From positions 32,001 to 96,000 of the forward strand of contig JAHPZA010000001.1 of the NCBI GenBank assembly GCA_019058445.1: DNA of 64,000 nt. The letters run 5' to 3'. This document shows, in pieces, positions 40,615 to 56,006 of the stretch. Position 1 is the first letter of the stretch; every line of letters begins with the position of its first letter. The DNA comes from Promethearchaeota archaeon. GTDB lineage: Archaea > Asgardarchaeota > Lokiarchaeia > Sigyniarchaeales > SOKP01. The notes under the pieces were generated by a model that was given only the letters and a program-made list of their open reading frames with translations, was not told the origin of the DNA and did no database searches. Both the position numbers and the translations under genes were made by a program.

Positions 40615-40832
40615 TTTAAAAAGGGCGACTCCTTGCCACGCAACCTCAATACGAGGTCAAAAATCAAATAGGGGGAGGAGGGCAAAATCAAAGTGTATAA
40701 AAATACACTAACCAAAAGACAAAAATCCAGGTGTGGCAGGAGTCATAGTTTTTGGTCTAATAATAATAGTCTACAGTAGTATTTATATACTCTTAGGTGA
40801 AAATATTAAATAGATTGGCAATAATCATCAGG
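40615..40832. repeat. ~220-bp direct repeat, copy 2
   Basis: Matches 23278-23500. Confidence 0.92.
40618..40758 (-). ncRNA. Candidate ~140-nt structured small RNA, copy 2
   Basis: Same stems as copy 1. Differences fall in loops or linkers, or change U-G to C-G. A TATATAAA box lies upstream on the minus strand. Confidence 0.6.
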
Positions 40833-41142
40833 TGCAACATTGGATTTCAAAATCCGTGTTAGATATTCTTATACCATCTAGCATTGACATCTTCTGAAAA
40901 ATTTTTCCTGATAATAAGACCATGCATAGCTTTTAAACATTAAGAAAAAATAGGAAATAATCAATAAAGATTTACAATAGTAATATATGAATTGAATCTT
41001 TTGATCCGAGAATGAATTAAAGAGAAAATACATTTAGGATATATACTAAATGATAAAGAGATGAAAATATTCTAAATCTTGACAGACTCTTATTTTATAT
41101 TTATAAATTAATATAATAACAGAGTAACAAATACTTTCAAAT

Positions 41143-41733
41143 ATGTCGAAGATTTATTATATATATAAAAATCCTGTTTTTTGTATCTTAGAAAATGAAT
41201 TTGGGCTATCTATGATTGAGATAAAAATAAATGAATTTACCAGAAGATTTTTACTACTAATCAATTTTCTTGGGAATAACACAGCCAAAAATGAGAAATT
41301 TTTAAAAACAAAGAAAAGGTTTTTGAAATTATATTATTTATCAATGAATTCAAAAATTTTAGATAAAGTTTTAGAGATCTTATCAATAGAGAAAAGTGAA
41401 GATCAAGAAAGGTTTAGAAATAAGTTAAAGGATACTTTTTTTATATTTTTACATGGTGTATATTTAAAAAATTTCGCTAATAAAATTTCGGAATCAATTC
41501 GGCTTGATTTAATCAGAATTGAAAGAGATGGCAGGTCTTTTATTTATTATTTAACAAAAAAAGGATTAGAATTAGTAAAAAGTATCATAAAAGAAAATAA
41601 TTCTTCTACTCAAGAATATATATCTAATTTGAAAAAAATGAATCCTTTAAAAGAAATCTCTACAAAAATCATAACCAATATCATAGATAAATTAATAAAA
41701 AAAAAGACTAAAGAAATCGGAACAAGGGTTTAA
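41143..41733 (+). CDS. Winged-helix protein, possible ABC-3C/Lamassu middle component
   Basis: LIRIERDGRSFIYYLTKKGLELV wing motif; abuts the SMC-like gene. Confidence 0.5.
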   Translation: MSKIYYIYKNPVFCILENEFGLSMIEIKINEFTRRFLLLINFLGNNTAKNEKFLKTKKRFLKLYYLSMNSKILDKVLEILSIEKSEDQERFRNKLKDTFFIFLHGVYLKNFANKISESIRLDLIRIERDGRSFIYYLTKKGLELVKSIIKENNSSTQEYISNLKKMNPLKEISTKIITNIIDKLIKKKTKEIGTRV

Positions 41734-43743
41734 ATGTTAAAATATATGGTTAAAAGTAATTATTTAAAAATTAATAGAATTAAAATCGAAGGTATCTGGA
41801 CTTTAGACCATGAATTTAAAGGAGGATTAAATGCAGTTATAACAGCAAATAAACATGGAAAGACTACTTTGATTCAAACAATTTTAGCAGCTATTGGTTT
41901 TAGCGATAAAAGAAAAAATGAAGCTAAAAAAAATGCTAGTAAGGTCTATTTAGAACTTTTACTTAATGATAAACTAAAAACCATCGAGATGGACACTAAT
42001 GAAACAGATAAAGGTTATAAAACATATCTTTATTTGCAGGATAACGTGAATATTGATGGTTTTGATCAGAAAAAATCTAAAATGATATCAAGAAAAGATC
42101 TTAATGGATTGATTGAAAAAGAAATAGGATTAAATCCGTATATTTATCGCGACAAAGTAAATAAAAGATATCCATTAAATAATCTAAATCAATCTTATCG
42201 AGCTTTTTATTTAATGCAAGGAAAAGCTAATGAAATAATTTCTGATTATCAAGCACAAGATATTAGAAGGACAGTTACACAAAGTTTGTTAAGATCACCT
42301 AAAGAATCAAATGTTTTTGAGGATAAAAGTACGGACTATGGGAGTCAGATAAAAGAAAAGGATAAAGAAAAGGATGCTATAATTAGATCTACTAATAAGA
42401 AACAGCACCAAATAAAAGAATATGCGATTAATATAATTTCAGATAAAGAAAAAATTGAAGAAATAGATTTTAACAAGATTGAGTCAATTGAAAAGATAAT
42501 TATTGATATTGATTCTCAAATTAACGAGATTAGCAAAAATAAAAATGATTTAATTAATAAATTAAATGATATTTATGATAATGTGAAAAACCATGAGATT
42601 GTTCTAAAAATTGAGAAATTGGTAGAAGATCTTGATAATAATAAAAATCAAACCTTTAAGGAATCATTAATATTGGAGCAAGAAATTAATTCAATATCAA
42701 AAAAAATTCAATATTATCAAGAAGAAATAATTGAAATTAATAATAAATTAGATAAAAGAGATTATTCAATCCCACTAAGAGTTCATAATCCAACAAATAT
42801 TTGTGATAGATGTGGTCGAAAATTACCTACATCAAGAATAAATTTGGAAAAACAGACTCCTCCAAAATGTGCACTGTGCGGTCGTATAAGAGATGTTAAT
42901 CTCTTAAAGCCAGAAAAATTAAAAGATCGAAGAAAAATAATAGAAGAAACTTTGAATATTCAAAAAAATAAACTTAACCACAATGAAACAAAAAATAAAA
43001 AAGTACTTCAAAAAATATTAAAAATAAAAAATTCAATTGAAGAGAAAAAAAATGAAATTGAAAATTTAAGAAAAAATCTAACAAGGGAATCGACTAGTAA
43101 AATATTAGAAGAGTATAAGAAAATTGATGATGAATTAATCGATTGGAAAGAGAAAAAGATAAATGTATTTCAATACGCTGAAAACCTAAGAGAAATACCA
43201 AAACTCAATAAAGCCATTAGCAAATTAAGAAAGGAAAAAAAAGAATATGATGCTAAATTCAAATTTAAGGAAAAAATTAGAGAAGATTGGGAAAGAAATA
43301 TTCAATTCTTCATGAAAAAGGTAGGTTTTGAAGATGAAGGTGATAAAATAATCAAGTTAGATCCTAAAACTATGCTTCCAACTATAGATGGAAAGTCTTG
43401 GAAAAATGACCTTGTGGATAATGAAAAACATTTATATAATTTAGGTATGTATTATTCTTTTTTGAAATGCTCATTGATTCATCAAATAAAATATCCTCGT
43501 TTTATTGTGTGGGATTGCTGGAAAACAGGTGAATTAGATAAAGAAAAAGCTAAGCGAATAGGTAAAATATTAAAAGATCTTAATGAAAAATATAGTAATG
43601 ATTTTCAAATGATAATATTTACTGCTGACGAAATAATAGAAGGATATATACCGCCTGAAAATGTATTAAAGAGAAAATTTACAAAAGAAAAAGAAGAATA
43701 TTTATTTTTAGAAAAAGGTGTGATTAAATATTCCAAACCATAA
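41734..43743 (+). CDS. SMC/Rad50-like ABC ATPase with Zn hook (LmuB/ABC-3C-like)
   Basis: Walker A TANKHGKTT, Q-loop FYLMQG, coiled coil with CDRC...CALC, degenerate signature LVDNEK, Walker B FIVWD, ELD, FQMIIFT. Confidence 0.75.
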   Translation: MLKYMVKSNYLKINRIKIEGIWTLDHEFKGGLNAVITANKHGKTTLIQTILAAIGFSDKRKNEAKKNASKVYLELLLNDKLKTIEMDTNETDKGYKTYLYLQDNVNIDGFDQKKSKMISRKDLNGLIEKEIGLNPYIYRDKVNKRYPLNNLNQSYRAFYLMQGKANEIISDYQAQDIRRTVTQSLLRSPKESNVFEDKSTDYGSQIKEKDKEKDAIIRSTNKKQHQIKEYAINIISDKEKIEEIDFNKIESIEKIIIDIDSQINEISKNKNDLINKLNDIYDNVKNHEIVLKIEKLVEDLDNNKNQTFKESLILEQEINSISKKIQYYQEEIIEINNKLDKRDYSIPLRVHNPTNICDRCGRKLPTSRINLEKQTPPKCALCGRIRDVNLLKPEKLKDRRKIIEETLNIQKNKLNHNETKNKKVLQKILKIKNSIEEKKNEIENLRKNLTRESTSKILEEYKKIDDELIDWKEKKINVFQYAENLREIPKLNKAISKLRKEKKEYDAKFKFKEKIREDWERNIQFFMKKVGFEDEGDKIIKLDPKTMLPTIDGKSWKNDLVDNEKHLYNLGMYYSFLKCSLIHQIKYPRFIVWDCWKTGELDKEKAKRIGKILKDLNEKYSNDFQMIIFTADEIIEGYIPPENVLKRKFTKEKEEYLFLEKGVIKYSKP

Positions 43744-43831
43744 TAATAAAAATGAAATAAAATTAGATTACATCCCCGAAAAAATCACATTTAGAGAAAA
43801 GAACTCTTTTTGGATTTTAACTTCTTTTCTT

Positions 43832-44689
43832 ATGCTTCTTTCTTTGCTTTTACTAATCTTATCCATTCATTTCCACTCCAATTCTATGTTAAGTGAAATA
43901 TTAAGAGATTTAAATTCAGCTGTTATTATTTCAATAATTATTGGTTTAATTTTTATTAAAATCCCGGAATCTTATTTTTTAGCTCGTAATATTAGGTTAG
44001 TAGAGTTTTTAATCGAAATAAAAGAGTTCGAAAGTGCTGAGGCTATCATATTAGAATGCTTTAAAAAAAACCCAAATAAATCAAAACTTTTTGACCTTTA
44101 TGGTAGACTATTGATTGAAAAAAAAAATTTGACATTAGCTGAAAAAATTTTATTACGAGGGCTTGAAAAAAGTAATAAATATTCTCAACTGCATTATCAT
44201 CTTGCTATAATTTATCTCCTAACCGAAAACATAAAAAAAGCTAAAGAGCATAATGAATATGTTATAAAAAAATTCAGAAAAAATCCGAAAGCTTTACAAC
44301 AAAAAATTATAATACTATTTAAACAGGAGAAATATAGTGATATAATAAATTGTTATGAGATAAATCTTAAATATTTTGAAAAGAATGAAATTATTCACGA
44401 GGAAATTATAGCTTATACATTATTTAGTGCTGCTCAATTAAATGATCTTGAAAGATATAATAAACTCTTGGGGAAATTGAGTTTTGAGGATTTAAAAAAC
44501 AATCTCAACTCTTATAATATTCTTATTTCTAGCTATTTAATTGATGATAAACAAACAATGAAGAAGATGATAAATTATATAGATAAACATAATGTATATG
44601 AATATCTAACAAAAGAGCAGATTAGTAATATTAAAAAAATTGAAGAAGATATAAAAACAAATCCAATTATGAGAACTATTGAAATATAA
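43832..44689 (+). CDS. Membrane-anchored TPR protein
   Basis: Two N-terminal hydrophobic helices followed by TPR-like repeats. Confidence 0.6.
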   Translation: MLLSLLLLILSIHFHSNSMLSEILRDLNSAVIISIIIGLIFIKIPESYFLARNIRLVEFLIEIKEFESAEAIILECFKKNPNKSKLFDLYGRLLIEKKNLTLAEKILLRGLEKSNKYSQLHYHLAIIYLLTENIKKAKEHNEYVIKKFRKNPKALQQKIIILFKQEKYSDIINCYEINLKYFEKNEIIHEEIIAYTLFSAAQLNDLERYNKLLGKLSFEDLKNNLNSYNILISSYLIDDKQTMKKMINYIDKHNVYEYLTKEQISNIKKIEEDIKTNPIMRTIEI

Positions 44690-44870
44690 CTCCCATAATA
44701 TTAATTTCAAAAGGTTTGTGATAAGGTAATAGATTCTCACATAATTAAGAATAGCAAAAAACTGAAATTTCGTACTCTAATGGTTACTCATGAGATTAAT
44801 ACAAAAATTTAAAATTTATTCTTTGAGTTTTATTTTAGAATCTTAATTACATAACTTAAATTGAGATAAA

Positions 44871-45533
44871 ATGGATAAAGATTTAAAACAGGTTTTTATA
44901 AAACAATTAAAAGATGTAATCGAATTCTATGAAAAACCAGAGCGAAAAAGTAATAGGTTAGCAAGTAATATAATAACGAGAGCTAGAGCTGTAGTTGAAA
45001 GAATTACTGGTAAAAATTCAAATTATTATAAAAAAATTGACGAAGTTTTAAATCAATATCAAGTATATGAAGATAATTATACTAATAAACTTCAAACTAT
45101 AATGGGAACAGTTGATGCGTTACTTTTAGATTTAGAAGCAGATTACTTAAAATCGCTTACAGAATTAATCCATGATGATATCTTCTCAAATTATTTAGAA
45201 ATGGCAGAAGAATTTTTAAACGATGGTTTTAAAGATGCATCAGCGGTTATCGCAGGGAGCACTCTTGAAGAATATCTTAGGAAATTATGTAATAAGAATA
45301 ATATTGATGTAAAAATTATTTCTTCAGGTAAAGGAAAACCGAAACCAGCAAGTCAATTGAATCAAGAATTATATAAGAAAAATAAAATTAAGAAAGGTGA
45401 AATGATGCAAATCACTGCTTGGTTAGATATAAGAAATAATGCTGCACATGGCAAATATAATGAATACAATAGCCAACAAGTCGATTTAATGATAAAAGGT
45501 ATAAAAGTTTTTACTTCCAATAATCCAGCTTGA
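44871..45533 (+). CDS. HEPN (DUF4145-like) protein
   Basis: LEMAEEFL..GFKDASAVIAGSTLEEYLRKLC...WLDIRNNAAHG. Confidence 0.8.
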   Translation: MDKDLKQVFIKQLKDVIEFYEKPERKSNRLASNIITRARAVVERITGKNSNYYKKIDEVLNQYQVYEDNYTNKLQTIMGTVDALLLDLEADYLKSLTELIHDDIFSNYLEMAEEFLNDGFKDASAVIAGSTLEEYLRKLCNKNNIDVKIISSGKGKPKPASQLNQELYKKNKIKKGEMMQITAWLDIRNNAAHGKYNEYNSQQVDLMIKGIKVFTSNNPA

Positions 45534-45712
45534 ATTTGAAAAAAAGGATATTGATGAGGTTAAGGATGAGAACAGTATTCTTTTAATAGAAGAAAAATAA
45601 GGGATAATAAAAATGCTAAAGAATGAAAATTAAAGTGAAAGAGAATATTAAAACAGCATTATAAGCTATAAATATAAAAAGAACAAAAATAGCGAAAAAC
45701 AGCGAAAGACGA

Positions 45713-45868
45713 TTAGTGTGAATTTGAAGAGGATTTGTTTGCTTTTTCCTTTTCTTCTAAAAGTAAGAGAATTATGTTTACAGCTTCCGAGTACGTTTTA
45801 CATCCGTACTTTTCTTTAACCTTTTCTAACCTTTCCTTCACGTTTTCAGATACATCAATCGAAGGCAT
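45713..45868 (-). CDS. Small ribbon-helix-helix (CopG/VapB-like) regulator, 51 aa; not in the ORF track
   Basis: Hand translation MPSIDVSENVKERLEKVKEKYGCKTYSEAVNIILLLLEE...; divergent from the 46283 gene run. Confidence 0.7.
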   Translation of the reverse strand: MPSIDVSENVKERLEKVKEKYGCKTYSEAVNIILLLLEEKEKANKSSSNSH

Positions 45869-46282
45869 AATTATATCACAATAATAAAGTACCTAATTTA
45901 ATTTTACTTATTACGATTCTTATAATGATCAGAGAATTATTTAATTCTTTTTATAATAACTACCACACATTTTTCTGATTTATCTAAGAATACGTATGGT
46001 TTTTATTATTATATTAAGAATCAGCTTTTGATTATCTAAATAGTATTTTAATTAGATTACTAATGATTATAAAATAATCCATAATCTATATAAGAAGGGT
46101 TATGAAAATTGTCACAAGATTTAAATACTTATGTAATAATTATTAGACTATTGATAAAAATTTAATTCACGATTAAGTGAAGTTTTTGTCGGATAAAGGC
46201 ACAATTTAAAAGGTTTGAGGGAGTGTGAGAAGAATTTCAGCACGGGGTTATGTGAGAAATGAAACAAGAGGGGGATGTAGCA

Positions 46283-47083
46283 ATGTTTCCCAATAAAAAT
46301 CCAATAGTCAGTAGTGAGAGCAGGGGAATTGAAAAGCTACAATTTAATACTAAAGATTTTTTAGAAATAGATGAAAGGTATGAATCAGAAGTACAGCTTT
46401 ATTCAAAGAAAGTAGAGGTTTTAACCTCTCTACTATATCGAGCAATATCACTTTTGGAGTCACATCAATTACGGATAAACCCAACTCAAAAAATCTACAT
46501 AGAAACAGGAGTTCCTGCAATTAATCCCAAACTAAATACCCAATTAGCACAATTAAAGTTTTTTGAAGTCAATTCAACACTTACAAAACATATGTCAGCA
46601 TGGTTTAATCTAATTCAATTTTATTCGAGATGTTTATATACCTCTTATAATGACAAAAAATTTTTGCGAATGAAAGCTCAAACGTGGAACTCAGAGGTAA
46701 AAGACATGCACCCGCTTATGAACTTTTATTTAGGCGGACAATTCGGAGAACGAGTAAAAAACGAGGTTAGAATTTCAGATGGTATGGTAGATCACGTAGT
46801 TGATGGGATTCCGATTGAAGATAAATTGCTCAAGAAGTCCAAACACGAAGATATTGAATTAGTTATCTCTGAATTATTCCATGAACATTTAGATCAAGTC
46901 AATAGACAATCGGGGATTAGCGGATTTTCCATTTTATGCGTGGTAGATATACGCACCGATGTCAAACAGAATAGAATTAAGAGTTCTCCGTTAGCAAAAT
47001 GTTTTCGGATTTTTTTTGAGAATAATTGTTGGTATGCCACTTTTGTATTTCAGGCGTTTACCAAATCCCCCTCACAAATTTAA
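46283..47083 (+). CDS. Putative PD-(D/E)xK nuclease
   Basis: NEVRISDGMVDHVVDGIPIEDK (E...D...ExK); SD-like GAGGGGG before ATG 46283. Confidence 0.55.
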   Translation: MFPNKNPIVSSESRGIEKLQFNTKDFLEIDERYESEVQLYSKKVEVLTSLLYRAISLLESHQLRINPTQKIYIETGVPAINPKLNTQLAQLKFFEVNSTLTKHMSAWFNLIQFYSRCLYTSYNDKKFLRMKAQTWNSEVKDMHPLMNFYLGGQFGERVKNEVRISDGMVDHVVDGIPIEDKLLKKSKHEDIELVISELFHEHLDQVNRQSGISGFSILCVVDIRTDVKQNRIKSSPLAKCFRIFFENNCWYATFVFQAFTKSPSQI

Positions 47084-47105
47084 AAATAACGGTAAGGATA
47101 GAAAA

Positions 47106-47435
47106 ATGCATTTAAGTATATTAGGAGAATTACCACCGCCCAAGAAAGAAAAAAAAGAGGAAAAACACAAAATCGCCGAAATTTTTAAACAATTTGCGAT
47201 ATGCATTCGGGGCACAATTGCTAACAAATATACCTTCGCAGAATTAGAAGCAATGGCGTTAGAACAGGCAATAAGGGTAAACAGAATAAAAGAAGAAATG
47301 TTAGATGCGGGGAAGAATAGATTATACCGTTCTATTTCTCGTCTTACCAGAAGAGTAAATAGGTATAGAAGAAAGAGAAGTATATTAAGAAATGAAAGAA
47401 AAAGAATGAGGAGATTAAAGAGTAGTGTATTATAA
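47106..47435 (+). CDS. Basic hypothetical protein
   Basis: Arg/Lys-rich C-terminus. Start set at MHLS. Confidence 0.5.
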   Translation: MHLSILGELPPPKKEKKEEKHKIAEIFKQFAICIRGTIANKYTFAELEAMALEQAIRVNRIKEEMLDAGKNRLYRSISRLTRRVNRYRRKRSILRNERKRMRRLKSSVL

Positions 47436-47655
47436 AGATAAAAGATCTAAATTCAGAGCAAGACTATCAATTAAACGAGCTAAAAAGCGTGAGTGGGAAC
47501 AGAAATTAGATTTTATTATTCAAGTCGTAGTTATAGGTGGGCAATCGTGTAATCCGATTTTGGTCGAAGAATTGATAAATGAAATAAAAACTGTAAATTT
47601 GGAGGGAAAAGAAAGGATTATCGAGGATTTGAAAATAATACTTCTCGATTTATGA
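47425..47655 (+). CDS. Hypothetical protein
   Basis: 76 aa; overlaps the previous stop codon. Confidence 0.45.
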   Translation: MYYKDKRSKFRARLSIKRAKKREWEQKLDFIIQVVVIGGQSCNPILVEELINEIKTVNLEGKERIIEDLKIILLDL

Positions 47656-47806
47656 TACTACCATATTATTAACAGGCGGGGAAGGTAAAGAGTTGCTCAA
47701 ACTAAGTTTCTTATATTCGCAAGATATTAAAGAGCGGGGTAGCCTCTTTATCCCTAAAGCCGAATGTAATAAAAAATAAAAAGAGGGTATATGTAGAATA
47801 TCTAAA

Positions 47807-48385
47807 ATGACCGATTTTACCGATTCAATGGAGTTTTTTGTAGTATATCTTATAGTGAGCTTAATTTTATTCGGATTAGCTATTTTCTTCTACATTACCT
47901 ATAAGAAAGGACACGAATGGAGGGGATTAAAAGTTATCATTTGTATCCTAATTGCTATATCTCTAATATTTTACATGGTAAGCTCATTTACCAATTTAGA
48001 GGGAACACAGATCCCACCGAGAGCAGATTTTAAATTTGTATTTACCATGACTTTTTTCTTTCTATTGTTAATTTCCGTCTATTTGTTTCTTTCTTTATTT
48101 TTCAAAGAAGATGATAATTACTATTCGGAGCAGGAAGATGATACAGAAGAAAGTGAAATGGAAGATATAGAATATACGCATAAAATTAACTCTCATACAA
48201 TATCGTTTGAGCCGAATTATGAGGGTGAGAACAGTATTGAAAACAAATTTTACCCAGAAAGCGAACAATACAGATTTACCGCAAATAAAGAAGATCTCTC
48301 TAAAGACAAGGATTTACAGGAGTTAGAACAATTTGTGAATACTCTATTTGAGAAGCAAAAAAGAGGGAAAACAGATGACAATTGA
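47807..48385 (+). CDS. 3-TM membrane protein with acidic C-terminus
   Basis: Three hydrophobic helices, then an acidic linker. Confidence 0.6.
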   Translation: MTDFTDSMEFFVVYLIVSLILFGLAIFFYITYKKGHEWRGLKVIICILIAISLIFYMVSSFTNLEGTQIPPRADFKFVFTMTFFFLLLISVYLFLSLFFKEDDNYYSEQEDDTEESEMEDIEYTHKINSHTISFEPNYEGENSIENKFYPESEQYRFTANKEDLSKDKDLQELEQFVNTLFEKQKRGKTDDN

Positions 48386-48695
48386 TATAAGAGTAAGAAA
48401 TTTGGAAGACACATTATACGCAATTAATTTATTCATTGATAAACACATTTCTTATATAAATACCAGAAAAGTAAGGAAGTATTTAAATGTAGATTCGTCT
48501 AACAGGTCAAAGATTAACTTTATAGGGCGTTCTCTCCAATTTTTACAAAAGAAAGGGATATTAGAAGAAGTACATCGGAGTAAAACCATTCATTATAAGC
48601 TATTAAGGAAGGAGAAAATAGATATACAAGAATTTATCGAACAAATGGAAATACATACATCCTCTACAAAAAAGAAATTATTTTTAAAAAATTAG
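48375..48695 (+). CDS. Winged-helix DNA-binding protein
   Basis: INTRKVRKYL...IGRSLQFLQKKGILEEV....IHYKL. Confidence 0.55.
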   Translation: MTIDIRVRNLEDTLYAINLFIDKHISYINTRKVRKYLNVDSSNRSKINFIGRSLQFLQKKGILEEVHRSKTIHYKLLRKEKIDIQEFIEQMEIHTSSTKKKLFLKN

Positions 48696-48714
48696 TAGGA
48701 AGGAATTAAAAAAT

Positions 48715-49122
48715 ATGTTTGAGCAAAAAGTATTAGTAAGGATTTTAAACTGCACTAAGTTTGATTTGAGGGAAATTGAGAATTTTTGTATCAAATTCAA
48801 GAAAAAATACGGAGAGGATGTATTTGGTAAACTCATAAGTGATTTATACGAGATACGACATACATTTTTCCATTATAACAATACCATGAATGAGCTATGG
48901 TATTATCTACTCTGTCACGTTGTTAAAAAGTATATCGAGCCACAGGGAATTAAGTATTGTTATGATGAGTTTTGCGATCTGAAAGAGAACTTTACTAATC
49001 CTACATTTCGATTCAAATACTCGGATTTTAAAGATTTGGAATTGGAATTTATGAGAGCAGGGGTAAATACTAACGTTTTGCATAAATTAATTAATGATTT
49101 AAATTATTTTTTAGAACGATGA
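48715..49122 (+). CDS. Hypothetical protein
   Basis: 135-aa ORF with an AGGAAGGA SD-like sequence upstream. Confidence 0.5.
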   Translation: MFEQKVLVRILNCTKFDLREIENFCIKFKKKYGEDVFGKLISDLYEIRHTFFHYNNTMNELWYYLLCHVVKKYIEPQGIKYCYDEFCDLKENFTNPTFRFKYSDFKDLELEFMRAGVNTNVLHKLINDLNYFLER

Positions 49123-49175
49123 TAAGATATAGGATTGAATAGAATCCAATTAAAAATTTAAAAAGGTAATAACTA

Positions 49176-49952
49176 TTGATAGAAGACCAAATTAATTATA
49201 ATACTGAACAGGACAAGAATATCATTTTTAAAGATGTTATGCTCATTAATATTACCGTATCCGATTATCAGTCAATAACTCTCAGGCATAAAAAATTATC
49301 ATCCGAGAAGGAAAAAATAATGATAAACAGGGCATTAGATTTTGCGATGGATGTGTCAGACAAAGATTTTAGAGATGAGTCGGTAATTCATATCGTAAAG
49401 CCACGAGTAGAGGCAGATTTTTTTATGAAAATGGGGTTTGCTCATTTTTCGAGTGCTTCTGACCTATGCATTTATATAAAGTGTCAAAGTCTTGCTCGGT
49501 TTGAATTTTGGTGTAAAATCATCAGATCTTTTATCATAGATATTCGTTTTAAAACTATTTTCTTGGATTGGGGATATTCGGAACAGCTAAGAATCGAGGA
49601 TGTAAAAAATGAACTTGGTGATTGTATCCCTTATCTCAATACCCAATTTGAAATTGATACGTGCGAAATTGATTTTGATATTTCCGATGATTCAGACGAT
49701 ATACCCGAATACCTAAAAACCAAGCTAGATAACGATCCCGCATTAAGAGAATTTACTGAGGATTTTGCGTACTGTCCTATCTGCGGAGATGAGAATGATA
49801 TAGAAATGCTTGTGGAAGTTTACGAGGCAGATAAATCACTATTTAAAGAAAAGCGTGATAAGTTGTGTGAGTTAAAAAACCTTGATGCTGTTAGAGGAAT
49901 ACCCATCAAAATCGGGATTCCTTGTTGCGGGTGCTTCTACAACATTTTTTAA
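49176..49952 (+). CDS. Hypothetical protein with C-terminal Zn finger
   Basis: CPICG...CCGC. Confidence 0.5.
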   Translation: MIEDQINYNTEQDKNIIFKDVMLINITVSDYQSITLRHKKLSSEKEKIMINRALDFAMDVSDKDFRDESVIHIVKPRVEADFFMKMGFAHFSSASDLCIYIKCQSLARFEFWCKIIRSFIIDIRFKTIFLDWGYSEQLRIEDVKNELGDCIPYLNTQFEIDTCEIDFDISDDSDDIPEYLKTKLDNDPALREFTEDFAYCPICGDENDIEMLVEVYEADKSLFKEKRDKLCELKNLDAVRGIPIKIGIPCCGCFYNIF

Positions 49953-50122
49953 TGACTAAATGATAATTAATTTTTTGAATAAAACATTTTTAAATAACCA
50001 TTTCTAATGAGGAGAATAGGAATATTTACACACAAATTTTGAAAAATGATCAATAGAAAATATTATAAAAAATCGCTTTTCACCTTAAATTAAAAATATT
50101 ATAATGAGGTGTAAGAAAAAGT

Positions 50123-50362
50123 ATGAATAATGAAGACCAAAGAAATAAAAGCAATGATAATAAAAAGAACAACTCTATCGATGAGGAAGAACTTAAAGAA
50201 TTAATTCGGGAAGTTCTTTGTGAAGATTTCGGGATGTGTTCCATAGATCAAAAAATTGAACTATTAGACAAGCCAAAACATTATACGGGCATTATTGGAA
50301 GCAATCATTTTGAAGAAATCACAGAAGAAGAATTTAATCGAAGAAGTAAATCCAAACAGTAA
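50123..50362 (+). CDS. Hypothetical protein
   Basis: 79 aa; GAGGTG SD upstream. Confidence 0.45.
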   Translation: MNNEDQRNKSNDNKKNNSIDEEELKELIREVLCEDFGMCSIDQKIELLDKPKHYTGIIGSNHFEEITEEEFNRRSKSKQ

Positions 50363-50394
50363 AATTCCAAGATGATATTCAACAAAATTTTATG

Positions 50395-50448
50395 GACTTC
50401 AAAGTATAGACTTTAAAGTAAATCAGAAAATATGTGGACTTTGAAGTC
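50395..50448. repeat. Three quasi-palindromic 11-12-mers GACTTYRAAGT
   Basis: GACTTCAAAGT 50395, GACTTTAAAGT 50409, GACTTTGAAGTC 50437. Confidence 0.55.
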
Positions 50449-50671
50449 AACAAACTTGAGGAATACTTTATAGATCTATAAAATGTTTGATATATTTAAA
50501 GAAAAAATGTTATGGCATACATTTAAAAAGAGATTTTACTATAAAATAGGTAGAGGATTTTGAAATTTGTAATAGACTTGTTGATTGCTCACAATGAAAT
50601 TTCGTTTTAAAAAAATCTTGTTGGCAAACATTTATAAATACCCAATATAAAAATAAGGTTTGATATAGCTT

Positions 50672-51010
50672 ATGGAACGAGAAAACTTTTCACTATATGG
50701 TAATGGAGATTTGCTAACATCTCATAGATATCTTGTTTCAAACCTAAGTTTTAAAGCAAGAAACGGTATAGCTACAATCAATTTACCTTTCAGTAAAAAG
50801 TTTCATTTACGGCATAAAACACAAATCGTTCCGTTGAGTTTATCTATGATGGAGTTAAACTCCAATGAGTATAAACTATTTGAGGCATTTTCACTTTTTA
50901 GGTATCAACAAGTAGATCTAAATTTTTTTGAATATAAGTCTATACTTTTTTGGTATCAAAATTTGAAAGACGAGCAAAAGTTTATAAAGACATTGGTATT
51001 TAGGAATTGA
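50672..51010 (+). CDS. Hypothetical protein
   Basis: 112-aa ORF downstream of a TTTATAAA box. Confidence 0.4.
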   Translation: MERENFSLYGNGDLLTSHRYLVSNLSFKARNGIATINLPFSKKFHLRHKTQIVPLSLSMMELNSNEYKLFEAFSLFRYQQVDLNFFEYKSILFWYQNLKDEQKFIKTLVFRN

Positions 51011-51077
51011 ATATAAGAATAAAATTTAATTAAAAATAGCTATAAAAATATTAAAATTATAATGTGAGGGATGTAAA

Positions 51078-51392
51078 ATGTATGATAATGATAATAAAAA
51101 TAGTAAAAAGTCTAAAATTGCTAGAGTTTTAGCAGAAATAAAAGTTATTATAAGGAAAAATAAAGATTTAGGACTTTCCGAAGAGCTAATAAGGAAGCAG
51201 AATGCAAGCGACTGTTTCATTCTAGATTATCTCCGAGGCGAGAATGTTGAGTTTGAAAGCGTGGAGGAAGTTAATCAGACCGTAGAGGATCTTCGTGTCA
51301 TACTCTCTGAGGAAATTATAAGATATAAACCAGAAGGACAAATTAATAAGCTTCCTCATTGCGATTATGATCCAACTAAAATTAAACGTTAG
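51078..51392 (+). CDS. Hypothetical protein
   Basis: 104 aa; GAGGG SD; directly upstream of the 932-aa gene. Confidence 0.5.
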   Translation: MYDNDNKNSKKSKIARVLAEIKVIIRKNKDLGLSEELIRKQNASDCFILDYLRGENVEFESVEEVNQTVEDLRVILSEEIIRYKPEGQINKLPHCDYDPTKIKR

Positions 51393-51412
51393 TACGGAAA
51401 GAGAGTGATATA

Positions 51413-54211
51413 ATGGAAGATGAAAAGAAGCCAAAAAAGAGATCTCCCTTAGATAATTACGAAAGCGAAATGAAAAAAGATATGTTTGGACAAGTTGTCA
51501 AAAAGAAAGCAGGAGACACACCGAAAAAGCAGGAGGCACAACAAAAGAAAAAAACCCCTTCAAATTCATCCCCGCTAGACACATACGAAAGCAAAATGCT
51601 TCAAGATAAAGCTTCTACGGTTGTAAAAACACCAGATAATAATATTTCGATTGGACAGGGATACTGTTCAAATGAATCTATTTTAAATGCGTATGAAACA
51701 GAAATGTTAAATCAACACGTTTCGAACACCTTAGATCCTAATCGATCTGGAAGTAAGAAACCGAATAAAAAGAAAGCTCCATCTGACGAATGGAAAATCG
51801 TCATTTATGAAGCAGGATTAAAATATATAAGAGCATTAAAAGAGAACTTATATATCGATGACAAAATTATTAAATTGATTACTAGCAAGAAAAATATTTC
51901 AAAAATATTTAATCATCTCTTCATAATCTTCAATGAAAAGAGAGGCAGAAGAACTTTAGGTGTATTTTTACTTATTTTTTATGGTTTTTATGATTCTGAT
52001 AATTTTGAGGATTTACTCAACAAATTAAAGGAATTTTCAGATATGAGTTATGATAGACTCTCAGAATATGTTAAGAAACTGATTGATGACTTTTACGAGG
52101 TCACTGGTCAAGATCTTTATCTTATATGGATGGAGAAAGCGAAAACACAAGAACTTGAAAAAGCACAGAATTTCAAGGAGTTAATTAATAATGATGTTAA
52201 TATAATTCCAAATGAAAGACAAACTTTAGTGAATAACAAAATGGAAACACCAAACATAAATATTCCTAATTTTCGAGTGAGAGTAAAAAACCATTTCGAT
52301 TATATTTTAAGTTCAATTGAATGTACATCTAATCAAAAAGAAAATATTTCACTTAAATCTACCAATATACTAAAGGAGTTTATTTCGAGAGCAAAAAATA
52401 ATGAATTTACTATCTCTAGTAGAGCAGATCCTAAAATAATTGCTACCAGTATAGTGTATACAGCAATCGTATCAAATGAAAATATGCCAGAGATTAACAT
52501 GACTCAAGTAGCTAAATTAGGAGGTATAAAATCACCAAGAATTACATATTACTATAATATATATTTTAGAGAATTGTATCCTCGAATAACGTTTGACTCA
52601 ACCGTATACAAATTAACACCGATTAAATTAATTTTTTCGTTCTATTTTTTTCAACTGCTTTTAAATAGAAATATTAAGTTTTCCAATCAAATTCAAATAA
52701 TAAAAAAGGATATTTTGAATAACACAAATCTTCCAAAAGAATTAGATGAGGTAAATGTTAGAGAACTCCAAGAGATTGCGAAAAATTATCCCGATGTTTT
52801 TACTAAATATTTCAGCGATATGTTCAATATAGTGAGATATTTAATGGAATTAGCTACACTCTATAGAATAATTGGTGCTTCTATAAAAATCCTACCAATC
52901 GCAAAAATGTTTCATAAGAGAGGTATTAATTTAACACAAACGGTTGACGGTTTTCATCGATCTTTAACAGAAATTTTCGATTTTTTAAAAGAAAAGAATT
53001 TTAAGTTTTTTCCTAAACGAGTAGAATCAACAGACACTCCCAAAAAAGAGAGACCTGAGAAACAACGTCAGATGAAAAGAATTGTTGGAACAAGAATTAA
53101 ACTATATATAATAAATCATATTTATAACGGGAAATATTTTAAAAAAGGAAGAGAAGGCTGTCCAAAATGCTTGAATAAGGGTTTAAAAACGGATATTACT
53201 AGGATTAAGGGTTTGGAATTCCACCATCCTACTGAAATGAGAGAGATGCAATATACTGCGGAAAATCTCTATCAGTTATTTATTAACAATCAGCTTAATC
53301 CCTATTTTCTAGACGATCTGATAGAGGCAATGCAGAATGAAAAGGTACAATTATTATGTACTAACCACCATAACTTACTACATCATGAGGATTACCATGA
53401 TTTTAAATACTTAATTAATTGGGCAAACATATTTTCTTATCCAGCAGAGATCATCCGCTTATTAATCAGAGTTGCGGTAGATAATTTTCATAAAACTAAA
53501 GACTTAACTATTGACGAAAAAAAAGGGAAGCGAAGAAATTTACGATCTAAAATAAAGAAAAAATATGTTTTAGAGTTTTTTAATGGAAGATATTGCCCTG
53601 CTTGTGGAAAATTCAACACATTGGATCATTTAACAGCATTCCATTTTAGTCATATCGATCAACGTAACGAAGATATTGATATTCTTAGATTATTTCGAGA
53701 TAAATCATGTTCTAAAATAGTTAAAGCATTAGTAAATGAGGGTGGTGGATTTGTTTGTGGAAATTGTCATACAGTTTTTCACTTTGATAAATATATCCCC
53801 CTTTTAGAAGAGATTTTTGAGGATAAAGCAATAATAAACAATATTATAGAAGATTATGAAAATGTCAGAGATAAATATTCCCCTATATATAACGCCTCAG
53901 TTGGAGACCCATTAAAAACATCCAAAGCTCAGTACGGCAAGTTTCAAAACTATCTAATGTCTATTTATGCAATTTCAAATTCTGGTAATGACGTTACACA
54001 TTCTACTTTAAGCGAATATATGGGGTTGGCAATACCATCTATATTCAAGTTTTTTAAACAAAATAAGAAGCTAGTTAGCAAGTATATAGATATTAACATA
54101 GGAAGTTCAGGTTGGAACGGAGAGGAAACTAAATATTCTTTAAATGCAGACGGAGAAGAACTAATAAGGGTAATTAATCACTTTAGGGACTATTTCAGTT
54201 CTATTAAGTAA
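51413..54211 (+). CDS. 932-aa protein: TFB-like cyclin/HTH repeat, two Zn-binding HNH-like domains, C-terminal winged helix
   Basis: ADPKIIATSIVYTA...INMTQVAKLGGI...ITYYY resembles TFB repeat 2; CPKC..LEFHHP..LLCTNHHNLLH; CPAC..FHFSHI..FVCGNCHTVFH; VTHSTLSEYMGL...YSLNADGEELI. Confidence 0.7.
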   Translation: MEDEKKPKKRSPLDNYESEMKKDMFGQVVKKKAGDTPKKQEAQQKKKTPSNSSPLDTYESKMLQDKASTVVKTPDNNISIGQGYCSNESILNAYETEMLNQHVSNTLDPNRSGSKKPNKKKAPSDEWKIVIYEAGLKYIRALKENLYIDDKIIKLITSKKNISKIFNHLFIIFNEKRGRRTLGVFLLIFYGFYDSDNFEDLLNKLKEFSDMSYDRLSEYVKKLIDDFYEVTGQDLYLIWMEKAKTQELEKAQNFKELINNDVNIIPNERQTLVNNKMETPNINIPNFRVRVKNHFDYILSSIECTSNQKENISLKSTNILKEFISRAKNNEFTISSRADPKIIATSIVYTAIVSNENMPEINMTQVAKLGGIKSPRITYYYNIYFRELYPRITFDSTVYKLTPIKLIFSFYFFQLLLNRNIKFSNQIQIIKKDILNNTNLPKELDEVNVRELQEIAKNYPDVFTKYFSDMFNIVRYLMELATLYRIIGASIKILPIAKMFHKRGINLTQTVDGFHRSLTEIFDFLKEKNFKFFPKRVESTDTPKKERPEKQRQMKRIVGTRIKLYIINHIYNGKYFKKGREGCPKCLNKGLKTDITRIKGLEFHHPTEMREMQYTAENLYQLFINNQLNPYFLDDLIEAMQNEKVQLLCTNHHNLLHHEDYHDFKYLINWANIFSYPAEIIRLLIRVAVDNFHKTKDLTIDEKKGKRRNLRSKIKKKYVLEFFNGRYCPACGKFNTLDHLTAFHFSHIDQRNEDIDILRLFRDKSCSKIVKALVNEGGGFVCGNCHTVFHFDKYIPLLEEIFEDKAIINNIIEDYENVRDKYSPIYNASVGDPLKTSKAQYGKFQNYLMSIYAISNSGNDVTHSTLSEYMGLAIPSIFKFFKQNKKLVSKYIDINIGSSGWNGEETKYSLNADGEELIRVINHFRDYFSSIK

Positions 54212-54216
54212 AACCT
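54204..54216. repeat. Right junction: arm TTAAGTAAAA plus CCT core
   Basis: Inverted partner of 20663-20672; contains the stop codons of both the 932-aa gene and the truncated regulator. Confidence 0.6.
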
Positions 54217-54392
54217 CTGCGAGCGAGTATGTGCGGATATTTCTGTTCTTTGAGTACATTCTCTAACGTCTTTAATGTTATGAAGGGTAATTCCTCTCTT
54301 ATATAAATTGTATTATCTTCTAGATTTTGATATCTGTTCTTTATTCCGATTAAGAGTGGTTTTGAATTTAATAAAGCAGACATAAGTTTTAT

Positions 54393-54447
54393 ATTTTCAA
54401 TGACAGATTCATTTAAATTATCGATATTTGGAAAAACTTTTACTAAA
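54393..54447. repeat. 55-bp direct repeat, copy 2
   Basis: 54/55 identical to 20838-20892. Confidence 0.9.
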
Positions 54448-54761
54448 AAGATGGAATTATCTTTTTTTACCAAAAAATCAAAACAAAACTTAGTTCTTTT
54501 GGTAGATTCCTCGAAATGAAAGGTTTCGAAATGTTTTTCACTTAAGAGGGCAGCAATTCTTTGTATTATGCTATCAACTGTCAATATCCTAATAGTAACA
54601 AGCAAAATCTTATAAAAAAGTTTTTCTGTTTAAGGTAATAATATTAGTTGGTTTATTTCTAATCAACTATTAAAGTAGAATCCTAGTTTTTCGCATCATA
54701 TTTACTCGTTAATTTTTTTATTAAAAATTCATTTTAATAAATATTTAAAAATAGGTAAAAG

Positions 54762-56006
54762 TTGAAAATCGTGTTAAAAATTGATAAAGCAAAGTTCGAT
54801 CCGATTGAATTATCTGACTTTCCAGAAATAGTTGAAAGGAAAGGGGTTGGACACCCCGATTCCGTGTGCGATGCGGCTGCTGATGCCTGCTCAAGAGCAT
54901 TATGTAAATATTATTTTGAAACTTTTGGTCGATATTATCATCATAATGTCGATAAAGCTGCCTTAGTTGGGGGAATATCAAAACCAGAATTCGGAGGCGG
55001 CATTATTCTTGAACCAGAATATTTTTTAATTGTAGGGAGAGCAATTAATCAAATCCTAAGAGAGAATAAATTAGAATATATCCCCGTCGCAACCATTTGT
55101 CTTGATGCATGCAGACAGGTTGTAGGAAATGTATTTCGAAACATTGATATTACTTCAAATCATCATATCCAGTTTGATTACGCGGTAAGACCAGGTTCTA
55201 TTGATTTGACGGGAGTATTCGAAGAATCTGATGCAAAAGAGCAGGTACCATTAGCAAATGATACGAGTTTTGGAGTAGGTTATGCCCCCTATTCAGATGT
55301 CGAAAAAATAGCTTTAGAAGCAGAACGATTACTTAATTCTGATGCTTTTAAAGATAAATGCCCTGCTTCGGGAGAAGATATAAAAGTTATGGTACAGAGA
55401 GTAAATAAAGATGTAGATATCACGGTCTGTGGAGCAATGGTTACGAAATACATCAATAATAAAGACGATTATGTGAACTATACAAATCAAATGAAAGACG
55501 CAGTATTAGATTTAGCAGCAAAGATCATCCCGGAAAAGAATTGTAGCTGTTCTGTGAATGTAGGTGATAATATTGAGAGAGGTATTCTTTACTTAACTAT
55601 TACGGGAACTTCTGCAGAAGCAGGTGATGATGGTGAAGTAGGTAGGGGCAATCGATCTAACGGTTTAATAACTCCATGTAGAACAATGAGTCTTGAAGCT
55701 GTCTGTGGAAAGAATCCGATTAATCATGTTGGGAAAATTTACAACGTGCTTAGTACAGAGATCGCAAGAGAGATTTATGAAAGAGGACAAGGCGATATTG
55801 TTGAAGCGCATGTAAAACTCTTATCTCAAATTGGCAGACCGATTACGGATCCTTGGATTAATTCTATCAGTTTGATTCCAGCCGATAATGTAAATTTTTC
55901 AAGTATTTCGAAAATTGCCGAAGAAGTTTCAGAAGAGAAGTTAAGTAAAGAAAAATTAATAGATCTTCGGGAACGCCTCATTGCTGGTAAAGTGCAAGTT
56001 TTTTAA
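54762..56006 (+). CDS. mat: S-adenosylmethionine synthetase (archaeal type)
   Basis: [65 protein letters not shown]. Confidence 0.96.

What the first reader, a model, noticed from the sequence alone, without database searches (positions are those of the whole stretch)
54204..54216. Protein breakpoint coincides with a 3-bp repeat and a dyad that exists only in the excised form
Seen: CCT at 20659-20661 and 54214-54216 sits at equivalent codons. Joining the element ends gives (minus strand) TTGAGTAGAAA-AG-GTTTTACTTAA, a dyad matching at 8/11 and centred on a dinucleotide inside the shared core. The left arm is also coding sequence of the replacement domain (L-S-R-K). The right arm holds the stop codon of the 932-aa gene. 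Known: serine integrase attP sites are dyads around a shared 2-bp core. Inference: insertion was precise and site-specific, and the replacement gene is recoded to double as a recombination site. The arms are short and AT-rich, so chance is not excluded.
Basis: partly seen in the sequence, partly recalled or inferred. Interest (0 to 1): 0.72.

Follow-up and report, generated by a model that had tools for sequence, protein, structure and literature searches.

The report
Gene-patching defence island, no integrase
A 33.5-kb defence island sits exactly inside the most conserved motif of a regulator gene of a Loki-type Asgard archaeon and brings its own replacement front end for that gene, but the proposed serine-integrase-style dyad is no better than chance; the likelier driver is the neighbouring nuclease-like gene, whose relatives sit beside other patched genes.

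Summary
The sequence facts hold. CCT lies at 20659-61 and 54214-16 in register, the joined ends give an 8/11 dyad, and the arms hold L-S-R-K and the stop codon of the 932-aa gene.

The breakpoint is real and sharp. Six relatives have the uninterrupted gene order RNase HII, HTH regulator, AdoMet synthetase. The window has 33.5 kb inserted at the invariant ARRGGG motif, with a foreign 126-codon N-domain and the displaced host N-fragment. A related element in G006/G004 patches the same gene at the same codons.

The serine-integrase reading fails:
- No known recombinase was detected by Pfam, PHROGs, NCBIfam or fold search.
- The dyad occurs at 0.46% of positions, or 10.7% with modest freedom.
- The shared "core" is only 3 nt.
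- Another strain has a junction 2 nt longer.
- The foreign tract overruns the host fragment's end by about 3 codons.

The 932-aa protein has a TFIIB-cyclin fold, two HNH-like zinc units and a wHTH. Its Loki-only family clusters by neighbouring target gene, always at a conserved motif. My best reading (about 0.5) is a homing-type targeted break followed by homology-directed copying.

Earlier notes of this scan, on the window's own genome and on another genome, had already flagged this protein family as a candidate selfish DNA-cutting gene.

The parts
19346..20023 (-). Host flank: RNase HII gene
   Evidence: Pfam RNase_HII E 2.5e-52. It lies next to the HTH gene in all empty-site relatives.
20010..21038 (-). 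Hybrid HTH regulator gene (342 aa, open): foreign N-domain joined to the host C-part
   Evidence: Translation. HTH_3 at residues 138-186. The C-part is 87%/82% identical to G007/G003, but the N-domain only 54%/52%.
20010..20651 (-). Host-derived part of the regulator gene (from about codon 130 to the stop)
   Evidence: Nucleotide identity to G007 is 82-97% from the junction onward.
20652..21038 (-).
   Evidence: It is 52-58% identical to every host allele searched, and 56% to the replacement N-domain of the G006 element. Codon AAA at 20652-20654 replaces a Gly that is invariant in all but one of the 17 host-type alleles aligned.
20652..20672 (-).
21039..45643 (.). Cargo of the island: defence-type genes. 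These include an ABC/AAA_21 ATPase (25931-29911 +), a HEPN Swt1-like gene (32822-34291 -), a TIR gene of PDC-S35 / CAP12 type (39745-40521 +), an LmuB-like ATPase (41734-43743 +) and a HEPN gene (44871-45533 +)
   Evidence: Pfam; PADLOC. No tRNA and no Rfam family in 18000-57000.
45644..51412 (+). Backbone of small co-directional genes. Positions 45644-48846 are duplicated at 97% nucleotide identity in a second island of the same genome (C9:192480-189279)
   Evidence: Contig depth is about twice that of the flanks.
51413..54211 (+). 932-aa protein P0003: disordered N-terminus, TFIIB-type cyclin fold, two Zn/HNH-like units, MarR-like wHTH. Candidate mobility enzyme
   Evidence: VIA Z 12.7 to P. 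woesei TFB (residues 287-393) and Z about 10 to MarR proteins (839-932). PHROG HNH endonuclease E 3.8e-5 for residues 706-804. Invariant CxxC..HH..CxxHH occurs twice. Pfam and NCBIfam give nothing.
54204..54216 (.). Flagged right junction. Holds TAA of the displaced fragment (54204-06, minus strand), TAA of P0003 (54209-11, plus strand), the last host-like base at 54213, and CCT at 54214-16
   Evidence: A source-run contig spans 52100-54422 with no difference.
54204..54605 (-). Displaced original N-terminal fragment of the regulator gene (133-aa ORF ending ARRG-FT*)
   Evidence: It is 89%/86% identical to the G007/G003 orthologues over residues 1-131.
54762..56006 (+). Host flank: archaeal AdoMet synthetase. 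It lies about 250 bp from the regulator gene in empty-site relatives
   Evidence: Pfam E 1.7e-144; synteny.

Best explanation
Shown:
- A 33.5-kb island (about 20652/20659 to 54212/54213) is inserted in the conserved archaeal HTH regulator gene, inside its invariant ARRGGG(V/I)IFLDG motif.
- The island carries a diverged copy of codons 1 to about 129 with its own upstream region, so a full-length hybrid gene persists.
- The original 5' part of the gene stays behind as a 133-codon stub next to the host's AdoMet synthetase gene.

Inferred:
- The insertion was not made by a conservative integrase acting on a dyad.
- More likely, the 932-aa TFIIB-fold/HNH-like/wHTH protein at the island's edge recognises and cuts the uninterrupted motif.
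- The broken gene would then be repaired from an island-bearing copy. The host-type C-part and the retained N-stub with its flank would serve as the two homology arms.
- The founding event may have joined the N-side end by end joining.
- The replacement N-domain would do two jobs. It keeps the regulator functional, and it changes the motif (SRKGGK for ARRGGG), so the carrier is no longer a target.
- The defence genes would be cargo that rides along.
For: Empty sites and a sharp switch of ancestry at the junction:
- Six relatives have the empty site, and the switch is sharp.

The same gene and codons are patched independently:
- In G006/G004 the neighbouring P0003 homologue is 61% identical and the foreign N-domain is 56% identical.

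No known recombinase:
- None was found in the island. The P0003 model shows only TFIIB-cyclin and wHTH folds plus Zn/HNH-like motifs.

P0003 homologues lie beside other patched or split conserved genes, each at the gene's most conserved motif:
- iolM/ADH-like gene at CGI|CGSD, with a duplicated N-part, in G061; G120 has the homologue and the same insert but no retained N-fragment.
- A C-terminal 48-aa duplication in G006:C36.
- A methyltransferase split at GNPP|WYTF by the sister island in G000:C9.
- A ChlI-like gene at MNPEE|GELRPQ.

Other points:
- In a maximum-likelihood tree the homologues group by neighbouring target gene with 100% support. The clades are HTH, iolM, ChlI and a fourth.
- The junctions are not reciprocal. 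There is a 3-codon overlap in the window, 5-6 target nt are missing in the C9 island, and another strain shows a 2-nt difference.
- Free-standing HNH endonucleases are known to mobilise themselves and flanking DNA by gene conversion (PMC2790892).
Against: - Nuclease activity is not shown. Pfam finds no HNH. Foldseek gives only a weak Cas9-HNH hit (E 1.2). The Cys/His units could be plain zinc ribbons of a regulator.
- No co-conversion gradient is visible in the host C-part.
- Homing of a 33-kb insert between archaeal chromosomes needs DNA transfer, which was not shown.
- In the window P0003 lies at the far end of the island, convergent with the stub. In G006, G061 and G120 it lies directly upstream of the patched gene.
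- Target-clade agreement may partly reflect vertical descent. The ChlI clade is syntenic, and G006 and G004 are identical.
- A patched AdoMet synthetase gene in G006 has no P0003 gene within its own 2-kb insert.
Confidence: 0.5

Rival explanations
1. This is a classical integrative element. An unrecognised site-specific recombinase performs conservative attP x attB recombination at the junction. The enzyme could be P0003 itself as a new kind of integrase, or another island ORF such as the 368-aa gene at 21595-22701. attP would carry the 5' part of the target gene, as SXT does for prfC or e14 for icd.
For: - The architecture is the same as in gene-restoring integrative elements: a displaced gene end plus an element-borne replacement (PMC2791158; PMC6379469).
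- P0003's stop codon lies 2 nt from the island end, where integrase genes often sit.
- Enzyme clades follow target genes, as integrase and att pairs do.
Against: - No tyrosine, serine or DDE family matched by Pfam, PHROGs or NCBIfam, and no recombinase fold appeared in the P0003 models.
- attL and attR share only 3 nt in register.
- The foreign tract overlaps the stub by about 3 codons.
- The strain behind P0043 differs by 2 nt at the junction.
- The sister island lacks 5-6 nt of its target.
- Neither a circle joint nor an empty-site contig appeared among the joints and loose ends shown for the source run, and the island's depth equals that of the host. Contigs are weak evidence here.
Confidence: 0.25
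2. A serine integrase acts on a short imperfect dyad that exists only in the excised form and is centred on a 2-bp core inside the shared CCT/AGG. The replacement gene would be recoded to provide one arm.
For: The 8/11 dyad and the 3-nt shared triplet are present as described.
Against: - No Resolvase or Recombinase domain occurs in any island ORF.
- The dyad is expected at 0.46% of positions at fixed geometry, and at 10.7% with small freedom of centre and spacer.
- The arms are 11 nt, whereas serine-integrase att sites span about 40-50 bp (my own knowledge).
- Junction heterogeneity of 2 nt would shift the proposed core.
Confidence: 0.03
3. No dedicated enzyme is involved. The island entered by homology-facilitated illegitimate recombination or ordinary recombination of transferred DNA at a variable hot spot between two core genes. 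P0003 would be a transcription factor of the island (TFB-like plus wHTH) and not a nuclease.
For: - TFIIB-cyclin and MarR-like folds are the only confident structural matches.
- HNH is not confirmed by Pfam or by fold search.
- The patched AdoMet synthetase gene in G006 has no P0003 gene in its own insert.
- Cargo is exchanged between the two G000 islands by recombination: the backbone is 97% identical while the ends are unrelated.
Against: - Untargeted events would not hit the same codons of the same gene twice with elements whose marker genes are 56-61% identical.
- They would not end the displaced stub within 3 codons of the end of the replacement tract.
- They would not place P0003 relatives repeatedly beside breaks in the most conserved motifs of unrelated genes, with clades matching targets.
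Confidence: 0.15

Closest known systems
SXT/R391 integrative conjugative elements in the 5' end of prfC (Hochhut & Waldor 1999, as cited in PMC2791158)
   Same: A large cargo-bearing island inserted site-specifically in the 5' part of a conserved protein-coding gene that stays functional. From my own knowledge of the 1999 paper (not stated in PMC2791158), the element supplies a new 5' end.
   Different: SXT uses a tyrosine recombinase and nearly identical attP/attB sequences. Here no integrase is detectable, the junctions share 3 nt, and the replaced part is a whole 126-129-codon domain at about 55% identity.
Prophage e14 (and phage 21) in icd of E. coli (PMC6379469, citing Hill et al. 1989)
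   Same: The element carries a diverged duplicate of the displaced gene end, so the host gene remains intact and a pseudo-fragment is left at the other junction.
   Different: In e14 the 3' end is replaced (163 bp), with homologous attL/attR and a tyrosine integrase. Here the 5' end is replaced and there is no att identity.
Free-standing HNH homing endonucleases of T-even phages (MobE, Seg proteins): intronless, trans and collaborative homing (PMC2790892; PMC2988022; PMC10448857)
   Same: - A stand-alone HNH-type gene sits next to the site it is thought to target.
- Targets lie in highly conserved coding motifs.
- The carrier allele is protected by an interrupted or altered site.
- Flanking DNA and neighbouring small introns are carried along. 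In relatives, P0003 homologues lie beside 30-nt stop-containing hairpin inserts and foreign first exons.
   Different: - The known cases are phage genes of a few hundred codons, with co-conversion tracts up to about 2 kb.
- Here the protein is 650-1000 aa with a TFIIB-cyclin fold and a wHTH.
- The host is a cellular archaeal chromosome and the cargo reaches 33 kb.
- The displaced gene end is kept as a duplicate.
- Cleavage is untested.
Large serine integrases and their attP sites
   Same: Only the idea of an imperfect dyad around a short central core.
   Different: There is no serine recombinase gene, the arms are 11 nt and within chance, and the junctions are not reciprocal.

Membership tests
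Serine-integrase integrative element | The element encodes a serine recombinase (Resolvase/Recombinase domains) | tested here: not met
   Pfam scan of all 26 island ORFs of 100 aa or more found none. PHROGs and NCBIfam on the candidate ORFs gave none.
Serine-integrase integrative element | attP is an imperfect dyad around an identical central dinucleotide shared with attB, above chance | tested here: not met
   The 8/11 dyad occurs at 0.46% of positions, or 10.7% with freedom of centre and spacer. The junction differs by 2 nt in another strain.
Integrative element with tyrosine integrase that restores its target gene (SXT/prfC, e14/icd type) | Tyrosine recombinase gene in the element | tested here: not met
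   No Phage_integrase or related hit at E<=0.01 in any ORF. The P0003 model has no such fold.
Integrative element with tyrosine integrase that restores its target gene (SXT/prfC, e14/icd type) | An identical core sequence is repeated at both junctions (attL/attR) | tested here: not met
   Only AGG (3 nt) is shared in register. The 55-nt near-identical block at 20838-20892 / 54393-54447 is not the crossover, because the right copy is host-like on both sides of it.
Integrative element with tyrosine integrase that restores its target gene (SXT/prfC, e14/icd type) | The element supplies a replacement for the displaced gene end, keeping the gene open | tested here: met
   The hybrid ORF of 342 aa is open. 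Its N-domain is foreign and its C-part is host-like.
Integrative element with tyrosine integrase that restores its target gene (SXT/prfC, e14/icd type) | Excision to a circle and a restored empty site | tested here: inconclusive
   Only assembled contigs could be laid. One spans the junction unchanged. No joint or loose end at 54213 is among those shown.
Free-standing HNH homing endonuclease | HNH (beta-beta-alpha-metal) nuclease domain | tested here: inconclusive
   PHROG HNH endonuclease E 3.8e-5 for residues 706-804. Two invariant CxxC..HH..N..CxxHH units. Pfam finds none. Foldseek's best hit is the Cas9 HNH domain at E 1.2. VIA finds nothing.
Free-standing HNH homing endonuclease | The insertion or target site lies in a highly conserved sequence, and the carrier allele has the site interrupted or altered | tested here: met
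   ARRGGG(V/I)IFLDG is nearly invariant in the orthologues aligned. The hybrid alleles read SRKGGK (G000) and CKK-RR (G006). Other family members lie at CGICGSD, GNPPWY and MNPEEGELRPQ.
Free-standing HNH homing endonuclease | The enzyme lineage is specific for one target site | tested here: met
   Maximum-likelihood tree of 14 homologues: the HTH, iolM, ChlI and 'x' clades each have 100% support and match the neighbouring gene. The sample is small and partly vertical descent.
Free-standing HNH homing endonuclease | Co-conversion of flanking markers around the site | tested here: inconclusive
   The N-domain is wholly foreign, but the C-part shows no gradient beyond about 20 nt.
Free-standing HNH homing endonuclease | Site-specific cleavage of the empty allele | not testable with these tools
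   Needs purified protein and a substrate.

The most novel reading that the evidence does not exclude
The TFIIB-fold/double-HNH/wHTH proteins of Loki-type Asgard archaea are a new class of target-specific mobility enzymes. They cut the most conserved motif of a chosen host gene. By homology-directed repair they then spread 'gene-patching' cassettes made of a replacement gene end, sometimes with a 30-nt spliceable hairpin. In the window, the cassette carries a whole 33-kb defence island. That would be a homing-endonuclease-driven genomic island in a cellular chromosome.
Probability: 0.35. Interest if true: 0.85.

Novelty: new variant of a known kind. Interest (0 to 1): 0.6.

Why it matters
Integrated elements of Asgard archaea are barely charted, and the ones described use integrases or have no known mechanism. 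This case shows a large defence island that enters a core regulator gene without breaking it and without any recognisable recombinase.

It links the island to a lineage-specific protein family that repeatedly sits beside repaired or split conserved genes. If that family proves to be a site-specific nuclease, three consequences would follow:
- It would explain how defence islands, foreign exons and the 30-nt mini-inserts noted elsewhere in this scan move between Loki-type genomes.
- It would add a new architecture to the homing endonucleases.
- It would give sequence-specific DNA cutters with large DNA-reading modules.

For annotation, it warns that 'truncated' and 'divergent' copies of a core gene 33 kb apart mark island borders.

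Tried and rejected
1. The 55-nt near-identical block (20838-20892 / 54393-54447) as the true att core. Rejected: the right copy is host-like on both sides of it.
2. The look-up of encoding contigs for the contexts of P0003 homologues.
3. The search for related loci with the 19-sequence alignment failed. With P0003 alone it found nothing in genome contigs or viral contigs.
4. Partial gene duplications around the two P0003 paralogues in G000:C9. None was found at E<1e-6.
5. Laying public runs. All four runs are contigs. Among the joints and loose ends shown there was neither a joint nor a loose end at 54213 (236 further loose ends were not shown). The 40601-to-54240 'joint' has a 20-nt side in a repeat and is probably spurious. 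Runs X3 and X4 hold only relatives' host flanks. No statement on excision can be made.
6. Fold searches for a recombinase or a clear HNH fold in P0003. The whole model and residues 560-810 gave only TFIIB-cyclin, MarR-type wHTH and a weak Cas9-HNH hit. A PDB profile search gave only wHTH repressors.
7. Canonical bulge-helix-bulge geometry for the iolM hairpin insert. RNAfold gives a helix, a 3-nt bulge and a 9-bp hairpin, not a textbook BHB. Left open.
8. G133:C30, whose P0003 homologue groups with the C9 island's copy, has no orthologue of the split methyltransferase next to it, only a distant (32%-identical) match to its N-part about 1.6 kb away.
9. Two recent Asgard virus and provirus preprints hold nothing on this family or this site.
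Full report
**What is at the coordinates**

The window (28.7% G+C) is G000:C1:32001-96000 of a 4.6-Mb archaeon. The homologues of its proteins carry Promethearchaeota/Lokiarchaeota labels.

- On the minus strand, 20010-21038 is an open 342-codon gene with an HTH_3 domain at residues 138-186.
- 54204-54605 is a 133-codon ORF homologous to the first about 126 residues of that gene. It ends ...ILARRG-FT*.
- The 932-codon gene on the plus strand ends with TAA at 54209-54211.
- CCT is present at 20659-61 and at 54214-16.
- The two N-domain copies align without gaps at a constant offset of 33,555 nt, so the triplets lie at equivalent codons.
- The joined ends contain the quoted 24-mer with arms matching 8/11.

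The literal observation is therefore correct.

**Is the breakpoint real?**

In G007, G003, G001, G005, G022 and G021 the gene order is orf18654, RNase HII, HTH regulator, then AdoMet synthetase about 250 bp further on. None of them has an insert.

Against the two closest of these genomes:
- The right-hand fragment is 89% and 86% identical over residues 1-131.
- The first 126 residues of the left-hand gene are only 54% and 52% identical.
- The remainder of the left-hand gene is 87% and 82% identical.

At the nucleotide level, identity of the left gene to G007 jumps from about 40% to 82-97% across one 45-nt bin. The window therefore holds a 33.5-kb insert. The left gene is a chimera of a foreign N-domain and the host C-part, and the right ORF is the displaced original 5' part.

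A 55-nt block (20838-20892 / 54393-54447, one mismatch) looked like a candidate att core. It is not the crossover, because the right copy is host-like on both sides of it.

**Exact junctions**

Orthologues read CG(C/A) AG(A/G) GGT GGA GG(A/C) (A/G)T(T/A) AT(A/C) TTC, which encodes R-R-G-G-G-(I/V)-I-F.

- The right junction keeps host bases through GGT (to 54213) and then reads TTT ACT TAA.
- The left junction reads AGT AGA AAA GGA GGA AAA ATT ATT TTC.
- The third Gly is invariant in all but one of the 17 host-type alleles aligned. This includes the closest uninterrupted allele found, P0054, which reads ARRGGGVIFLDGTLVKSL.
- That Gly is Lys in the window's hybrid and Arg in the G006 hybrid.

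The foreign tract therefore most likely runs to about codon 129, while the stub ends at codon 127. The two junctions overlap by about 3 codons and share only AGG in register.

A second strain (P0043, ENA, 624-bp contig) has the same stub and the same island end, but with two extra nucleotides on the host side. Its protein reads ARRG then VLLNRTEIVPKVINYPY, which is exactly the +1 frame of the window's sequence. Such raggedness is not what conservative site-specific recombination leaves.

**Chance value of the dyad**

With 11-nt arms and a 2-nt spacer, 0.46% of all window positions and 0.43% of random joints reach 8/11. If the centre may shift by up to 3 nt and the spacer runs 0-6 nt, 10.7% of random positions do. 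The dyad carries no weight by itself.

In G006 the stretch equivalent to the left arm matches at 7/11, which is uninformative in AT-rich coding DNA. The other junction there has been lost.

**Content of the island**

No tRNA and no Rfam family lies in 18000-57000.

Defence-type cargo:
- an ABC/AAA_21 ATPase (AriA/NsnB-like);
- two HEPN proteins;
- a TIR protein (PDC-S35 / CAP12 type);
- an LmuB-like ATPase.

No ORF of 100 aa or more matches a serine, tyrosine or DDE recombinase in Pfam. The candidate ORFs give nothing in PHROGs or NCBIfam either.

In the source run a contig spans 52100-54422 without a difference, and island depth equals host depth. The exception is the backbone, which is present twice in the genome.

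**The 932-aa protein**

P0003 has 39 homologues, all unnamed, in Promethearchaeota data and without Pfam domains. It occurs in 57 of 154 genomes of the order, often in several copies.

- The AlphaFold model is confident from residue 280 onward.
- Residues 287-393 match archaeal TFB (1ais_B: Z 12.7, rmsd 2.0, 95 aligned).
- Residues 839-932 match MarR-type wHTH proteins (Z about 10).
- Between these lie two units with invariant CxxC...HH...CxNHH-type residues.
- The second unit hits a PHROG annotated as HNH endonuclease (E 3.8e-5).
- Pfam does not see HNH. Fold searches of residues 560-810 give only a weak Cas9-HNH hit (E 1.2).

The nuclease assignment is therefore probable but not proven. No recombinase fold appears.

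**The same family beside other patched genes**

1. G006:C98 and G004:C121. A 61-63% identical homologue lies directly upstream of the HTH gene. That gene is again chimeric: its C-part is 77-78% identical to G001/G005 but its N-domain only 42-44%. The switch falls at the same codons (ILCKK-RRIIFMDG). A remnant of the host N-part lies further on.
2. G061:C60. In order: a host-like N-fragment of an iolM/ADH-like gene ending at KRCGI, a 230-aa partner gene, the P0003 homologue, a divergent N-part, a 29-nt hairpin, and the host C-part starting ICGSD. G120:C78 is similar.
3. G006:C36. The homologue lies between an 893-aa gene and a duplicate of that gene's last 48 residues.
4. G000:C9, about 181,425 to 214,175. 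This sister island shares a backbone at 97% nucleotide identity with the window. It has a 35%-identical P0003 paralogue and unrelated ends. It splits a conserved 760-aa methyltransferase at GNPP|WYTF, with 5-6 target nucleotides missing and no replacement.
5. G000:C9:269750 and its syntenic counterpart in G111. These lie upstream of a ChlI-like gene carrying a 30- or 32-nt stop-containing hairpin inside MNPEE|GELRPQ.

Every site is the most conserved motif of its gene. A maximum-likelihood tree of 14 homologues groups them by neighbouring target with 100% support. The sample is small and partly vertical descent.

**Mechanism**

Four lines argue against the serine-integrase reading and weaken any conservative-integrase reading:
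- targets in invariant motifs;
- carrier alleles with the motif altered or interrupted;
- enzyme clades that track targets;
- ragged, non-reciprocal junctions with no detectable recombinase.

They fit the logic of free-standing HNH homing endonucleases. Those enzymes nick or cut the empty allele and are copied in together with flanking DNA, and with neighbouring introns in 'collaborative' or 'trans' homing (PMC2790892; PMC2988022).

In this reading the retained N-stub is not debris. It is the right-hand homology arm that lets the whole island be copied. The replacement N-domain keeps the regulator working and removes the target.

I put this at about 0.5. An unrecognised integrase, possibly P0003 itself, gets 0.25. 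Enzyme-free recombination with P0003 as a regulator gets 0.15. The serine-integrase dyad gets 0.03.

The main weaknesses:
- nuclease activity is untested;
- the C-part shows no co-conversion gradient;
- P0003's position in the window differs from the tandem arrangement elsewhere;
- a patched AdoMet synthetase gene in G006 has no P0003 gene in its own insert.

**Relation to earlier notes of this scan**

First-stage notes on this window had already called P0003 a candidate mobility enzyme (e1-5497886, e1-5497899).

A follow-up on another genome (e1-5569412) described the same iolM site. It reported a 30-nt insert, a foreign first exon and 'a selfish DNA-cutting gene' beside it in relatives.

Other notes interpret the 30-nt inserts as tRNA-type mini-introns (for example e1-5504684). 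I did not test splicing. My fold of the iolM insert is not a textbook bulge-helix-bulge.

**Verdict**

- The precise, gene-restoring, site-specific insertion is confirmed and recurs.
- The serine-integrase and dyad interpretation is not supported.
- What is there is a new variant of the gene-restoring genomic island, probably driven by a Loki-specific TFIIB-fold/HNH-like protein family.

Noticed in passing
G000:C9:269020-269060 (outside the window); L040:13865-13946: A ChlI/MoxR-like AAA+ gene is interrupted inside MNPEE|GELRPQ by a 30-nt hairpin insert with an in-frame TAG (32 nt in G111). It lies directly downstream of a full-length P0003 paralogue and its 230-aa partner gene. Earlier scan notes call such inserts tRNA-type mini-introns.
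   Followed up: partly
L045:9316-9546, L043:13060-13100, L054-L058 (iolM/ADH-like gene of relatives; intact in G000 C6:562073-563119): 29-30-nt stop-containing hairpin inserts lie at CGI|CGSD in G061, G120, G130, G131, G112 and G136, with compensatory stem changes. G021 has one six codons downstream. Only G061 and G120 have a P0003 homologue next to the gene. N-parts of closely related genomes differ far more (78-86%) than their C-parts (96-97%).
   Followed up: partly
G000:C9:181425-214175 (outside the window): A second island of the same family splits a conserved 760-aa N6-methyltransferase-like gene at GNPP|WYTF and supplies no replacement. Its backbone is 97% identical to window 45644-48846. 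It carries a Type ISP-like enzyme (orf881) between the junction and its P0003 paralogue.
   Followed up: partly
window 23235-23493 and 40573-40849: A repeat of about 230 nt occurs twice inside the island (88% identical). It also occurs at C9:198.9k, 203.7k, 384.7k and 386.3k, at C4:351.0k and at C6:874.9k. There is no Rfam match. It could be a small mobile element or an RNA gene.
   Followed up: no
window 20838-20892 and 54393-54447: A 55-nt block encoding VKVFPNIDNLNESVIEN is identical but for one base between the foreign and the host N-domain copies, which are otherwise 50-75% identical. It is also 86-97% conserved in G007 and G003. This could reflect an unusual DNA-level constraint or gene conversion between the two copies.
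   Followed up: partly
L035:7531-10945 (G006:C98): The AdoMet synthetase gene of G006 is patched in the same way. A host-like N-fragment (residues 1-75, ending ALVGGIS-VYRSTP*) is followed by a CitMHS transporter gene and then a full gene whose first about 20 residues are divergent. No P0003 gene lies inside this 2-kb insert.
   Followed up: partly
L039:9950-15210 (G006:C36): A P0003 homologue, itself split into two ORFs, lies between an 893-aa conserved gene and a 54-codon ORF that duplicates that gene's last 48 residues (65% identity). This is a C-terminal version of the patch.
   Followed up: partly
window 54204-54216 versus protein P0043 (ENA contig, 624 bp): Another strain carries the same junction with two extra host-side nucleotides, so its stub reads on in the +1 frame for 17 more codons.
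   Followed up: yes
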